NCBI RefSeq assembly: GCF_006345805.1
Contig: NC_043000.1
Coordinates: forward strand, 65,038,001 to 65,102,000
From: Octopus sinensis
Lineage: Eukaryota
DNA: 64,000 nucleotides
Direction: 5' to 3'
Part shown: piece by piece, positions 5,388 to 40,669 of the stretch
Position numbering within the stretch: the first letter of the stretch is position 1
Layout: every line of letters starts with the position of its first letter
The notes under the pieces: generated by a model
What the model was told of the DNA's origin: nothing
Seen by the model: only the letters and a program-made list of their open reading frames with translations
Databases searched by the model: none
Translations under genes and position numbers: made by a program

Positions 5388-5952
5388 AACGAGTATAATT
5401 TCCCTTCTATGAGCAAATGACCGGCACTTTTGGAATATAATCATATTTGTTATTTTATTTAAAAATCAGCACAGTGCTTCAACTTTGTGGGAGTTATTCA
5501 CTAATTGGAGGGGAAAAGTAGTTTTTGAAGGTCAACTTACATGAGGCTATAGTTGACGAATGCGTGAACATTTCTGTGCCTATCTTTTGAAAAAATATAA
5601 TATATCTAAAATACTAAATTATATATGAGTGTAGAATAGCATAATGTAAAGCAACTGTTCTAATAAATGTAATTTGTAAGATTTGGTCATTATACTTGTT
5701 TCTGGATTGTACACTCTCTCACATACACACTCATACATACTCACATACACACGTACACACGTGAACACATACATACATAAATACATGGCAGCTGCCAACA
5801 GTATGACCATAACTGACAAATTATCTCATCCTAGATATTAAAGACAATAGCTGTCGGCAACGCCCGTGCAGAAATTAAAAGTCCGCTGTAGCTTGCACAA
5901 CATCACTACGACTCTCATTTCCAAAGCCAAGTTATTCAGAAACAAACAGAAG

Positions 5953-6012
5953 CAAGATGTTCGGTTTCGCAATGAGGTAGGTGTTATTTTGGAATTTTCT
6001 ACTCTTCAGATG
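5953..6012 (-). ncRNA. Decayed hammerhead-like motif
   Basis: Minus strand: cat-CTGAAGA-gtag...ttgc-GAAAC-cg-aac; cleavage triplet lost. Confidence 0.3.
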
Positions 6013-6519
6013 TCTGAACAAAGGCAAGGAATCTCTCACTCCTAGCTGTTGGATGGCCATTGAGTCTATTGAGTTTTTGCGTCTTTTGACAAATGTTGTT
6101 TTCCACCCTGTTGGATGTCTAACGAAAACCATCTTCCTTACCAAACAAGTTTGGTAGGGTTGTCGGTTTAGTTACTGACGGCCTGACCATGCGACAGGTT
6201 GTACTGGATTATATGTTACACGTAACACTAAGCGGGATTTGACATACATACACACATACACACTGCCTAAATACCAATCTTGAGAAATTGGGTTTCTCAA
6301 AACCAGAAAGGAGGAAGCTGATTCGAAGACTACAGATCCAAGCCATCAATGGAACTGTAAAAATCTGTAAAACTTTCCAGAAGTTTATCATTTAAGTATA
6401 TAAGAGTATATCTAGATATGCAAGTATAGTCATGAGAATACATACATAAAAAAAACATGCGATTCTGCACACATACATACATACATACATACATACATAC
6501 ATACATACATACATACATG

Positions 6520-6551
<32 letters not shown>

Positions 6552-6574
6552 CATACATTCATACATACATACCC

Positions 6575-6676
6575 TGCTGATGTTCTTGAAATTCCAGTGA
6601 AGGAGCCTTGGATCAGGGTTAGAAACCGGCTCTTTCTCTATTAGCAAGAAATTTTGAAGTAACATTGAATAATAAC
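6575..6676 (+). mobile_element. Short insert in (CATA)n with hammerhead-like motif
   Basis: GTGAAGG-agccttg-gat-cagggtt-a-GAAAC-cg-gct at 6597-6632: stem II and GAAAC-CG present, core altered. Confidence 0.35.
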
Positions 6677-23963: not shown

Positions 23964-25588
23964 TCAAAATGAAAACATGATGCCAAGGATTCAGCGGTAC
24001 AGTGTTTCGGGCCTTTATTAGACGGTTTTATAACAATGCATAATGTGTGTCTATGGCCTTCTTCAGCCGCGTACAATTACCACCTCAAGGACATGTATTA
24101 CATTATAAGTTTTACGTTGGGGAATCAAATCCTCATAGTCGCGTACGACAGAGTGGGGCACCAACACAAAAACTCCCCATGTGTGTGAGTGTGGGCGTGA
24201 GTGTAGGTGTATGCATATCTTTGTCCATAAGCATAGGGATTTACTTTCTCATGTGTGTGAGTGTGTCTGTATGTGCGCAGGTACGTGTATGTGTATACGT
24301 ACGTATGCGCGTCAGTTCTTGTACCCAACTACATGCACCTTTTTCCGTATGTATGTGTATATTGAGATATTTATGTATGTGCACATATACGTATATAAGT
24401 GGGTAGACGGGCGGGCTTTACATATGTATGCGTGAGTATGTATTTGTGTGTATACGAGTGCGTATGCAGAGGCAGGTTATTGTATTTGCTTTTATGTATT
24501 TAGCTGGTGCAAGCTTAGGTATCCGTACGTAGCGGGACGTATGTATATGCGTACCCCTGTCGGTATTTTTACACGAGAGTACGTATGTATATATACGTGT
24601 GGATGTGTATACGTGGGTATGTGTATGTGTATATGTGTATATGTATGCATGCGTGTACGTATGTACATGTTGACCACTAGTAACAAAGACAATTTACGAG
24701 GAAGTAGATAAACTGTTTAGCCACAAACCAGAAAACCAGACAACCGAAATTGACCATATACTTGATCTCCAGACTTTCTAGTTGATTTATGACACCCGCC
24801 ATTACGCTCGTAGGCTTCAACAACCGGAATATGTCATCTTTCTGACCACCATGTTAGTTCTTAACCCCTTTATATCCCTTATCCTTATTATTTTTTTTCT
24901 TTCGTCCTCAGTTCTCGCTTTATCTTTATCCCTATTTATTTATATTACCATGTTTTTTTTCACGTCTGTGTGTATTTAAATATTTATATATTTATATATT
25001 GATTTATATATTTATATACTTAGATACTTTTTTTTATATTCTTATATATTTCTTTGTATTCTTATAACTTTTTTTATATTCTTATATATTTTTAATATTC
25101 TTATATCTTTTTTATATATTTTTAAAATTTTTACTCTTTTGTAATTTTTTACGCTTTTACTACCATTTGCACCCACCACCCTCCCTCTTTGTGATCCCTA
25201 ACTCACTAAAGATTCAACCCTCCCCAACCCCTTCCCTCTCTATCTCAACATCCAAACTTCCTCATACTACATCGAGTGAAAGACGGGATGGACGCTTCGT
25301 TTTTGTGTTGGTGCCCCACTCTGTCGTACGCGATATGAAGATTTGCATCCCCAACGTAAAACTTATAATGTAATACATGTCCTTGAAGTAGTAATTGTAC
25401 GCGGCTGAAGAAGGCCATAGACACACATTATGCATTGTTATAAAACCGTCTAATAAAGGCCCGAAACACATGTACCGCTGAATCCTTGGCATCATGTTTT
25501 CATTTTGATTAATATACTCTATCACCTACACCACTAAATGGTATATACAGGTGCTTACAATTATCAAGTATTCACCCTGAATTTTTGT
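23964..25588 (+). mobile_element. Penelope-like element, family P3, with inverted pLTRs
   Basis: 23964-24172 is the reverse complement of 25299-25508; ~80-nt unpaired 3' tail; (TA)n flanks; hammerheads in both arms. Confidence 0.8.
25401..25478 (+). ncRNA. Type-I hammerhead ribozyme, GUA triplet (mirror copy 23994-24070 minus)
   Basis: gcgg-CTGAAGA-aggcc...ggccc-GAAAC-acat-GTA-ccgc; palindrome ACATGT. Confidence 0.8.
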
Positions 25589-25606
25589 ATATATATATAT
25601 ATATAT

Positions 25607-26483
25607 AAAATTAAATTTAGGTAAAAATTGATATTTATCCATTAGAACCAGTGGTCTAGCATATTAAAAGAAAGAATCCGAAGATTAAAATATTTATATG
25701 TACCAATTAAGGACTGAACACGAAAAGTGGACAGTCAACATGCTAGATATAGACGTCAAATCGCCAATCTCCACAAAAAGTCTATGTTCTCAGATCAAAC
25801 TCAACACAAAACCAAAGCAATAAACAAGTGAAAAATATACGAAATAAATATTTACCCATGTACTAAATTTAGTTTCGGCTGTTATTTTCCGCAAGGAAAA
25901 GTGCAGCCATCATCAGCATGGTCCCATATAAAATGAAATTTGCTGTACTAAATGCCAACACGATACCGAAATATCGCGTGCATGGAGTACGGATTCGTTC
26001 TTTTAATATGCTAGACCACTGGTTCTAATTGATAAATATCAATTTTTACCCTAAATTTAATTTTATATAAATATTTGTTCTCTAACCGATAAATTAACTG
26101 CTGCTAACTATTAGCTGCAGGCTAGTTTTCTCGGGTCTCATCGCGCCAAAATAAAGACATTTGAAATATATATTTCAAATGTAATAGGCCGTACTCCATG
26201 CACGCGATATTTCGGTATCGTGTTGGCATTTAGTACAGCAAATTACATTTTATATGGGACCATGCTGATGATGGCTGCACTTTTCCTTGCGGAAAATAAC
26301 AGCCGAAACTAAATTTAGTACATGGGTAAATATTTATTTCGTATATTTTTCACTTGTTTATTGCTTTGGTTTTGTGTTGAGTTTGATCTGAGAACATAGA
26401 CTTTTTGTGGAGAATGGCGATTTGACGTCTATATCTAGCATGTTGACTGTCCACTTTTCGTGTTCAGTCCTTAATTGGTACAT
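25607..26483 (+). mobile_element. Retrozyme-like element, family P4 (circularly permuted ~510-nt unit plus inverted arm)
   Basis: 25607-25990 is antisense to 25991-26483, but reads across the end-to-start junction of the sense unit; same family at 38929-40540. Confidence 0.8.
26260..26325 (+). ncRNA. Type-I hammerhead ribozyme, GUA triplet (mirror copy 25856-25921 minus)
   Basis: ccatg-CTGATGA-t-ggctg...cagcc-GAAAC-taaattta-GTA-catgg; palindromic ACTAAATTTAGT; all core bases present. Confidence 0.88.
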
Positions 26484-26621: not shown

Positions 26622-27531
<910 letters not shown>

Positions 27532-38065: not shown

Positions 38066-38070
38066 CATAA

Positions 38071-38836
38071 CGTTTCGCTGACGATATCGTACTCATTACT
38101 GAACAGGGATCAGCTTCAGACCATGCTGACGGAGCTCGACATCAAAGCTCTGAGTAGGTTCAAGATGAACCGCATGAAAACAAAGTTCATGCGGTCAGAC
38201 AAAGTACCAACAGGTCGATGGTGATCGGCAGTGATGAAATAGGTAAGGGAATACGTCTACCGGGATAGAAGTAATATGTGCCGAGATATCGAATCGAAAA
38301 GGAGCTCACGGAGAGTAGGGCGGTGAAGGCGTTCAATGGCATAAGGGACTGTGCTCAAAGGAAGGTTGGACAGACCACCCGCGCCAACCTCTATAACAGT
38401 GCAGTTCTGCATGCAATGTTATATGGTAGTGTGAAACATGGGCTACCACAAAGAGAGAAGAGCAAGACTGGTAACGTCAAAGAGCCATGGAAAGGTCAAT
38501 GCTTGGTATCTCGTGAGAGAGCACATAAGTAGCGAGATCATCAGAAAGAAGTCCGGTGAGAGATGTCATCGCAGAGTATACACGCAGCAAGTATAGATGG
38601 CTGGACACGTCGCCCGGCTCACCGATAATCGGTGGACGCAACAGTTGCGAGTGGTACCCGACGCGAGCGGAAAAGCCACCCGGAAGACTTCCACGAGGTG
38701 GAGTAACGAGTAGGAGGACGATTGGCATCACGTGGATGAGAAAGGCGCGATCCAGAGAGAAGTGGGACAGCGTGCTGTGACCAGGCGGTGTCAAATGGAC
38801 GCCTGACGGACTGGTCGGTCAAGGTGATAAAGGTGA
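38071..38836 (+). pseudogene. 5'-truncated RTE-clade LINE (RT C-terminus)
   Basis: ttcgctgacgatatcgtactc = FADDIVL, then QLQTMLTEL...[10 protein letters not shown] and LYNSAVLHAMLYGS; followed by a (TACA)n-like tail; frameshifted. Confidence 0.85.
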
Positions 38837-38928
38837 TATATATACATACATACATACATTACATACATTTAACATACATACATACTACATACACATAATA
38901 TACATTATATTATATATATATTATATAT

Positions 38929-40535
38929 ATACCAATTAAGGACTGAACACGAAAAGTGGACAGTCAACATGCTAGATATAGACGTCAAATCGCCATTCAC
39001 CACGAAGATTCTGTTCTCAGATCAAACTCAGCACCAAAACCATAGCAATAAATCAAGTGAAAAATATACGAAATTAAAAAATTACCCTGTATAATTAGTT
39101 ATCGGATGTTATTTTCGCAAGGAAAACTGCAGCCATCACAGCTGGTCCGTTAAATGCAATTTGCTGGACTAGATGCAAACACGATACGAAATATCGCGTG
39201 CATGGAGTTCAGCCTATTAATTTGAATATATCTTTCAAATGCCTTTACACGCGTTGAGACCCGAGAAACTAGCCTGCAGCTAATAATTAGCAGCGTCAAT
39301 TTATCGGTTAGGAACATATTTATATAAAATTAATTAAGGGTAGAAATTGATATTTATCAATTAAGACCAGTGGTCTAGCATATTAAAAAAGAATCCGAAG
39401 ATTAAAATATTTATATATACCAATTAAGGACTGAACACGAAAAGTGGACAGTCAACATGGCTAGATATAGACGTCAAATCGCCATTCACCACAAAAGATT
39501 ATGTTCTCAGATCAACTCAGCACAAAAAACATAGCAATAAACAAGTGAAAAATATACGAAATAAAATATTACCCATGTACTAATTAGTTTCGCTGTTATT
39601 TTCCGCAAGGACAAAAACCTGCAGCCATCATCAGCATGGTCACGCGCGCCAAAGTAAAGGCATTTGAAAGATATATTCAAATGTAATAGGCTGAATCCAG
39701 CACGCGATATTTCGGTATCGTGTTTGCATCTTAGTCCAGCAAATTGCATTTCTAACGGACCATGCTGATGATGAAACTAATTAGACATGGGTAATATTTT
39801 ATTTCGTAATTTTTCACTTGTTTATGCTATGGTTGTGCTGATTTGATCTGAGAACATAATCTTTGGGTTTGACATGGCGATTTGACCGTCTATATCTAGC
39901 ATGTTGATGTCCATTTTCGTGTTCACTTAATTGGTATATATAAATATTTTAATATTCGGATTCTTTTAATATGCTAGACCACATGGTCTTAATTGATAAA
40001 TATCAATTTCTAACCTTAATTAATTTTATATAAATAAATATGTCTCTAACCGATAAATTGACTGCTGCTAATTATTGCTGCAGGCTAGTTTTCTCGGGTC
40101 TCAACGCGCCAAGTAACGGCATTTGAAAGATATATCAAATGTAATAGGCTGAACTCCATGCACGCGATATTTCGGTATCGTGTTTGGCATCTAGTCCAGC
40201 AAATTGCATTTATAACGGACCATGCTGATGATGGCTGCAGTTTTCCTTGCGGAAAATAACAGCGAAACTAATTCGTACATGGGTAATATTTTATTTCGTA
40301 TATTTTTCACTTGTTTATTGCTATGGTTTGTGCTTGCTGAGTTTGATTGAGAACATAATCTTTTTGTGAAGTGTGGCGATGATTCCATACGTCTATATCT
40401 AGAGCATGTTGAGTGTCCACTTTTGTGTGTCAGTCCTTAATTGGTATATATAAATATTTAATCTTCGGATTCTTTTTTAATATGCTAGACCACTGGTCTT
40501 AATTGATAAATATCAATTTCTACCTTAATTAATTT

Positions 40536-40540
<5 letters not shown>
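38929..40540. mobile_element. Family P4 array: ~1.5 antisense and ~1.8 sense head-to-tail units, four hammerhead positions
   Basis: accaattaaggactgaacac at 38931 and 39420; ttggtatatataaatat at 39931 and 40441 (510-bp period); inversion near 39642; motifs at 39573-39639 (-), 40220-40282 (+), stem-II-deleted 39760-39790 (+), degenerate ~39085-39146 (-). Confidence 0.8.
40220..40282 (+). ncRNA. Type-I hammerhead ribozyme (family P4)
   Basis: ccatg-CTGATGA-tggctg...cagc-GAAAC-taattc-GTA-catgg. Confidence 0.75.
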
Positions 40541-40609
<69 letters not shown>

Positions 40610-40669
40610 TATATATTATATATATATACACATACATATATATACACACACACATACATTACACGTGTG

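What the first reader, a model, noticed from the sequence alone, without database searches (positions are those of the whole stretch)
38929..40540. Second P4 locus: head-to-tail multimer that flips orientation mid-array
About 1.5 antisense units are followed by about 1.8 sense units (510-bp period between 39931 and 40441), with one hammerhead position per unit, all between (TA)n tracts. One HHR per tandem unit is what rolling reverse transcription of a circle would leave, and it would allow monomer release by self-cleavage. The many small indels may be consensus noise.
Basis: partly seen in the sequence, partly recalled or inferred. Interest (0 to 1): 0.8.

Follow-up and report, generated by a model that had tools for sequence, protein, structure and literature searches.

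The report
Penelope-style inverted hammerhead retrozyme insertion
This is one copy of an abundant, protein-free jumping repeat with a predicted self-cutting RNA motif, and its mid-array flip is the normal layout of the family (two back-to-back arms, each ending at a different one of two fixed sites), which a Penelope-type retrotransposon enzyme likely produces; it is a new member of a known kind of element.

Summary
The layout is real: a 718-nt antisense arm (1.4 units) joined head-to-head to an 897-nt sense arm (1.8 units) of a ~507-nt non-coding unit, between TA tracts. There are four hammerhead positions, but only two have intact cores as assembled. The indels are local assembly noise: ~4 per 100 nt here and in the unrelated LINE next door, against ~0.3 in other copies.

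The flip is the family norm, not a fold-back artefact. Of 90 insertions picked only by one end motif, 76 have an inverted partner arm ending at the other fixed site ~90 nt upstream and none at the same site. An autonomous RT+GIY-YIG Penelope-like element (PLE) in this genome does the same (7 of 7, 32-nt offset).

Best reading: a non-LTR retrozyme, i.e. a non-autonomous PLE, likely inserted by both target strands priming at two internal RNA sites. Rolling-circle copying is allowed but not shown: most arms stop before the ribozyme, and long arrays hold mosaic variants. No partner PLE was found by sequence; cleavage, expression and circles are untested. The inverted-plus-tail layout is in print, and this scan noted it before on other DNA of this genome.

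The parts
38838..38929 (.). Left simple-repeat/TA target tract
38924..39641 (-). Antisense arm, 718 nt: unit positions 446 to 507, one full unit, then 1 to ~160 (position 1 = base after the predicted hammerhead cut); ends at site A, without tail
38930..38939 (-). Site A, terminal: short end of the element, runs into the TA tract
39086..39145 (-). Hammerhead position, core broken as assembled
39573..39639 (-). Type I hammerhead, core intact; predicted cut between 39578 and 39577
39641..39645 (.). Head-to-head junction, asymmetric (unit position 446 joined to 332), 3 nt between arms
39645..40541 (+). Sense arm, 897 nt: unit positions 332 to 507, one full unit, then 1 to ~250; ends at site B, with tail
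39760..39790 (+). Hammerhead position lacking stem II (32-nt gap) as assembled
40220..40282 (+). Type I hammerhead, core intact; predicted cut after 40277
40447..40539 (+). Tail: ~90 nt between site A (40437-40446) and site B (40529-40539), terminal at this end only
40536..40644 (.). Right TA target tract
25597..26483 (.). Sister insertion (other subfamily), same layout mirrored: antisense arm ends at site B, sense arm at site A

Best explanation
The locus is one insertion of a dispersed, non-coding ~507-nt hammerhead repeat whose two head-to-head arms end at two different fixed sites, likely made when a Penelope-type RT/GIY-YIG enzyme cut both strands of a TA tract and primed reverse transcription from each cut end. 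Shown: layout, copy number, TA target, one-A-one-B end rule, shared variants between arms, compensatory changes in the hammerhead. Inferred: the enzyme acts in trans, probably as a dimer; one target end primes at internal site B and the other at site A ~90 nt upstream, each next to a TATA-like stretch of the RNA that can pair with the target; both copy RNA from one source (uncut multimer or circle), stop at variable points, and the two cDNA ends are joined head-to-head. Here both arms ran past one hammerhead, so the template was not a cut linear monomer. The scattered indels are assembly noise.
For: End rule: 76 of 90 loci picked by the site-B end alone have a complete inverted arm ending at A, 0 at B, 2 elsewhere, 9 single, 3 cut by the stretch. 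Picked by the site-A end: 21 of 30 partner at B, 1 at A, 5 scored single, 3 cut. Similarity-picked set: 45 of 53 inverted loci A/B, 0 A/A or B/B, 8 with one odd end. An intact 781-aa RT+GIY-YIG element in G000 shows the same: 7 of 7 complete inverted arms among 30 tail-anchored loci end 32 nt short of the tail end. In 18 of 76 loci neither arm is contained in the other, so one cDNA cannot have copied itself there. Arms of one locus are closer than the median arm elsewhere in 45 of 48 loci. In vitro, a PLE protein cuts and extends both target strands, starts at two internal RNA sites that bound the tail, is predicted to be a dimer, and uses uncut RNA (PMC11167929). Inverted 5'-truncated copy, tail at one end and TA targets are described for PLEs (PMC8557442; PMC3846280).
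Against: No autonomous element with sequence similarity to the unit among 45 GIY-YIG loci, so the partner is unidentified. Arm lengths are coupled (Spearman 0.49) and 30 of 76 loci have near-symmetric centres against 10.7 in shuffles, which also fits fold-back self-priming. PMC11167929 saw no difference in start site between top and bottom strand and reported initiation without homology to the target, whereas here both sites sit at TATA-like stretches. This locus is one of 3 of 48 whose arms are not closer than average (2.3% versus 1.7%), probably through noise. Shared variants could also come from later gene conversion.
Confidence: 0.72

Rival explanations
1. Same element and enzyme, but the second arm arises by fold-back: the first cDNA primes on itself (or the RNA self-primes) and is copied back until it meets the other target end.
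For: Near-symmetric centres in 30 of 76 loci (10.7 expected) and the A arm contained in the B arm in 50 of 76 (39.6 expected); this locus is one of the contained cases. Self-priming was proposed for Penelope inverted repeats (PMC3846280).
Against: 18 of 76 loci have arms that do not contain each other. It gives no reason why the second end always falls at the other site, even in multi-unit arms that pass several A and B sites. Symmetric centres are also expected if both arms stall at one structure (28 of 76 A arms and 31 of 88 B arms stop at unit positions 50-75).
Confidence: 0.15
2. One reading: each arm is the print of rolling reverse transcription round a self-cleaved, ligated monomer circle. 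This concerns the template only and is compatible with the best explanation.
For: Arms of up to ~10-12 units; some arrays carry variants fixed in all units and seen in no other sampled locus (e.g. L084, L069, L073); the monomer folds strongly as a circle (z -5.3 and -8.3); circular RNAs are shown for other animal retrozymes (PMC7229834).
Against: Most arms never cross the cleavage site and the median insertion is 308 nt; many long arms have variants in only some, often adjacent, units (L061, L063, L065, L066, L074, L080, L084, L086), pointing to multimeric templates or DNA-level duplication; PLE insertion in vitro does not need cleavage.
Confidence: 0.3
3. The inversion at this locus is an assembly fold-back or chimera.
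For: The patch ~37.9-40.6 kb is poorly polished; no independent record spanning the junction was found.
Against: Flanks are not mirrored, the centre is asymmetric, and the two ends are the family's two different sites, which a fold-back read would not give; 78 of 87 uncut end-selected loci are inverted.
Confidence: 0.04

Closest known systems
Animal non-LTR retrozymes (PMC7229834; bioRxiv 10.64898/2026.07.22.740005)
   Same: Non-coding, low-GC tandem units with one type I hammerhead each; dispersed monomers to multimers; PLEs proposed as the mobilising partner.
   Different: Unit (507-512 nt) is longer than the 150-450 nt of PMC7229834, within the 51-972 nt of the preprint. PMC7229834's main text has no occurrence of 'inverted', while inversion is the rule here. 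Expression, cleavage and circles are not shown here.
Endonuclease-bearing Penelope-like element insertions with inverted pLTR and tail (PMC3846280, PMC8557442)
   Same: 5'-truncated inverted copy head-to-head with tandem copies, tail at one end only, TA-microsatellite target, type I hammerhead in the repeat.
   Different: No ORF; tail ~90 nt rather than 30-40; both arms can be multimers; no autonomous relative found by sequence.
Poseidon PLE of Anolis in vitro (PMC11167929)
   Same: Two internal start sites bounding the tail, downstream of the hammerhead; both strands cut and extended; AT-rich target.
   Different: That work did not pair one site with each end of an insertion and found no target homology at the start sites.
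L1 twin priming (recalled, no call)
   Same: Second target strand primes on the RNA and leaves an inverted arm.
   Different: Occasional and at variable sites in L1; here the majority outcome, at a fixed site, with arms that often overlap.

Membership tests
Animal non-LTR retrozyme | Short tandem units, dispersed as monomers to multimers | tested here: met
   507/512-nt units; 505 exact matches to the hammerhead 5' half, 272 and 614 exact end motifs in G000
Animal non-LTR retrozyme | Type I hammerhead in each unit | tested here: met
   Family: core plus three stems, 7 of 19 pairs with compensatory change (related sequences, few independent events). This locus: 2 of 4 cores intact as assembled
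Animal non-LTR retrozyme | Low GC, no protein | tested here: met
   GC 0.33; longest stop-to-stop frame 89 aa here, 73 aa inside a clean array
Animal non-LTR retrozyme | Two consecutive complete hammerheads on one strand ('active' criterion of the 2026 preprint) | tested here: inconclusive
   Not met at this locus as assembled, but the patch is noisy; met in other arrays
Animal non-LTR retrozyme | Self-cleavage and expression as linear and circular RNA | not testable with these tools
   Only contigs available
EN+ Penelope-like element (autonomous) | ORF with RT and GIY-YIG | tested here: not met
   so not an autonomous PLE
Non-autonomous PLE derivative | Tandem/inverted layout with tail at one end | tested here: met
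Non-autonomous PLE derivative | Insertion in TA or AT-rich simple repeats | tested here: met
   61 of 76 A ends run straight into further TA repeats; B ends were selected on TA
Non-autonomous PLE derivative | Sequence similarity to the pLTR of an autonomous PLE | tested here: inconclusive
   None in 45 GIY-YIG loci, a small part of 5029 candidates
Non-autonomous PLE derivative | Target-site duplication | tested here: inconclusive
   Cannot be read inside TA tracts

The most novel reading that the evidence does not exclude
Penelope-type insertion is an obligate two-site twin priming: a dimeric enzyme binds one structured RNA domain (unit positions ~70-270, nearly invariant between subfamilies whose other parts diverge), and its two halves always start at different sites, so the long-known 'inverted pLTR' and 'tail at one end' are one event. 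If the template is a ribozyme-made circle, both halves roll round it in the same direction and leave multimeric arms on both sides. This family, with an intact 781-aa PLE of the same genome, would make that directly testable.
Probability: 0.35. Interest if true: 0.55.

Novelty: new member of a known kind. Interest (0 to 1): 0.3.

Why it matters
The locus itself is ordinary for its family. The family-wide counts turn a qualitative remark in the PLE literature (tail often at only one end) into a near-strict rule, seen in two non-coding hammerhead families and one autonomous PLE of one genome. That gives footprint evidence that animal retrozymes are moved by PLE enzymes and a concrete model for how PLE inverted repeats form, which PMC8557442 names as an open task.

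Tried and rejected
Rfam: no hammerhead match at gathering or E-value thresholds; not evidence against, as the motif has an extended stem II.

Sequencing runs: no RNA holder listed. Contigs of 4 runs laid on 38960-40500 cover most bins at great depth, including one run guessed to be RNA, but no listed piece spans the junction, so neither structure nor expression was tested.

Partner search: blastn of both subfamily units against 45 GIY-YIG loci gave nothing; the 781-aa family has its own ends; long ORFs near family copies were not joined to them.

5' ends at the hammerhead cut: 3 of 24 B arms and 5 of 24 A arms at risk stop in positions 1-13, too few to claim cleaved templates.

Stop hot spot at positions 50-75: a transcription start and a structural stall both fit; not resolved.

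Real divergence as the source of the indels: rejected.

Paper searches for a twin-priming account of PLE inversions or for this family found none; the library lacks most subscription papers. Earlier-findings look-ups by sequence and nearby place were blank.

Full report
Observation. The window lies in G000, a 2.7-Gb genome rich in simple repeats. BLAST and k-mer mapping resolve 38924-40541 into a 718-nt antisense arm and an 897-nt sense arm of a ~507-nt unit, joined head-to-head at 39641-39645, between TA tracts. Numbering the unit from the predicted hammerhead cut, the antisense arm runs from 446 through one unit to ~160 (site A) and the sense arm from 332 through one unit to ~250 (site B). 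Only two cores are intact as assembled, one per strand. The unit has no long frame and 33% GC.

The ribozyme. Rfam gives no hit. The sister copy at 26255-26330 folds into the three stems of a type I hammerhead. Across 12 aligned copies from several subfamilies, 97% of cells pair and 7 of 19 pairs show changes on both sides; slid controls pair at 29-44%. The sequences are related, so these are few independent events. Stem III is short and mostly self-complementary; that such motifs cleave as dimers is from PMC7229834 and recall. Cleavage is untested.

Indels are noise. The two arms carry 3.6 and 4.4 indel events per 100 nt against a median of 0.3 (maximum 2.9) in 68 other arms of the subfamily, with substitutions at 1.8-1.9%. 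The unrelated LINE fragment at 38070-38835 has 3.9-4.1 per 100 nt against 7 other copies, which differ among themselves by 0-0.25. Repeats at 35.4-36.8 kb and most matches at 43 kb look normal. The broken hammerheads may therefore be artefacts.

The family. Similarity searches gave 1479 and 1637 candidates, 40 scored each, at 96-99% and 92-94% identity for the best copies. Exact motif counts: 272 site-B ends, 614 site-A ends, 505 hammerhead halves, 0 for reversed controls. After dropping 22 overlapping stretches of 100, 53 of 78 loci were inverted: 45 A/B, none A/A or B/B, 8 with one odd end. Because that set favours long arms, I took 90 of the 272 B-end matches (the first 30 and 60 of the next 70 listed; 3 already held and the last 7 were skipped): 76 partner arms end at A, 0 at B, 2 elsewhere, 9 single, 3 cut. 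Of 30 A-end matches, 21 partner at B, 1 at A, 5 scored single, 3 cut; two of the five are A/B on reading, and 4 overlap the B set. So the flip is the family norm, and a fold-back read, which gives mirrored ends, cannot account for it.

Link to Penelope-like elements. G000 holds intact RT+GIY-YIG frames of 762-883 aa. Among 30 loci of the 781-aa family picked by the tail end, 7 had a complete inverted arm within 1.5 kb and all 7 end 32 nt short of the tail end; 1 was cut and 22 showed none. A second non-coding hammerhead family sharing a tail motif gave 9 offset ends and 1 tail/tail locus among 30 matches, the rest single, unanchored or internal repeats. No autonomous element matched the unit by sequence. 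In print: inverted 5'-truncated copies, a 30-40-nt tail often at one end and TA targets (PMC8557442, 12 of 15 passages; PMC3846280, 9 passages); a PLE protein that cuts and extends both strands from two internal start sites bounding the tail and does not need ribozyme cleavage (PMC11167929, parts 1-2 of 4 and passages); animal retrozymes as tandem type I hammerhead units that make circular RNA and are probably PLE-driven (PMC7229834, passages and Discussion; bioRxiv 10.64898/2026.07.22.740005, parts 1-3 of 5). I saw no supplements; species lists there may include this family.

Template. Arms of one locus are closer to each other than to the median arm elsewhere in 45 of 48 loci, often sharing variants seen in no other sampled locus; this locus is an exception, probably through noise. 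One RNA source per insertion is the simplest reading; gene conversion is not excluded. In 18 of 76 loci neither arm contains the other, which needs two primings on RNA. Against a purely independent model, arm lengths correlate and 30 of 76 centres are near-symmetric (10.7 in shuffles), so fold-back may contribute, or both arms stall together: 31 of 88 B arms and 28 of 76 A arms stop at positions 50-75. That is the edge of a block (~70-270) that stays nearly invariant between subfamilies and is closed by a predicted helix.

Rolling circle. It is possible: arms reach ~10-12 units, some arrays have private variants fixed in all units, and the monomer folds well as a circle (z -5.3, -8.3 on 40 shuffles each). 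It is not required: 67 of 88 B arms and 57 of 76 A arms stop before the cut site, the median insertion is 308 nt, and many long arms have variants in only some adjacent units, which points to multimeric templates, later duplication or assembly error. At this locus both arms cross the cut site, so the template was an uncut multimer or a circle.

Verdict. A new family of a known kind: an animal non-LTR retrozyme with the Penelope insertion footprint. The A/B end rule is shown; twin priming by a dimeric PLE enzyme is inferred. My searches found no paper that pairs one start site with each end, but the layout is in print and earlier notes of this scan report it on other DNA of this genome. Interest 0.3.

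Noticed in passing
window 38070-38835: 5'-truncated LINE fragment (RTE-like by recalled motifs) with ~4 indels per 100 nt against its family; marks a poorly polished assembly patch of about 37.9-40.6 kb.
   Followed up: yes
window ~25400-25480 and ~27130-27240: Two further hammerhead-like motifs of other families, seen by eye; the first also occurs in L209.
   Followed up: no
L139:1-653 and 5936-6591: Intact 781-aa RT+GIY-YIG element with an upstream 479-aa frame, flanked by a 99% direct repeat that holds a second hammerhead family and a SINE-like piece; looks like a 3' transduction or tandem duplication.
   Followed up: partly
L304-L333: Second non-coding hammerhead family sharing a tail motif with this one; 9 offset-ended and 1 tail/tail inverted loci; some copies carry an internal inverted tail.
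   Followed up: partly
L199, L209, L211: Diverged subfamily: unit positions ~70-270 nearly identical, remainder diverged with compensatory changes in the hammerhead.
   Followed up: partly
L036:1330-1390: An arm of this family joined head-to-head to a different hammerhead-like sequence; possible two-template insertion.
   Followed up: no
L061-L062 (G000:C1:190067971-190076624): Array of about 17 units in one orientation with interleaved unit variants, suggesting growth by unequal exchange.
   Followed up: partly
L141:6629-7129, L150:6762-7262: A further hammerhead family in the same head-to-head arrangement.
   Followed up: no
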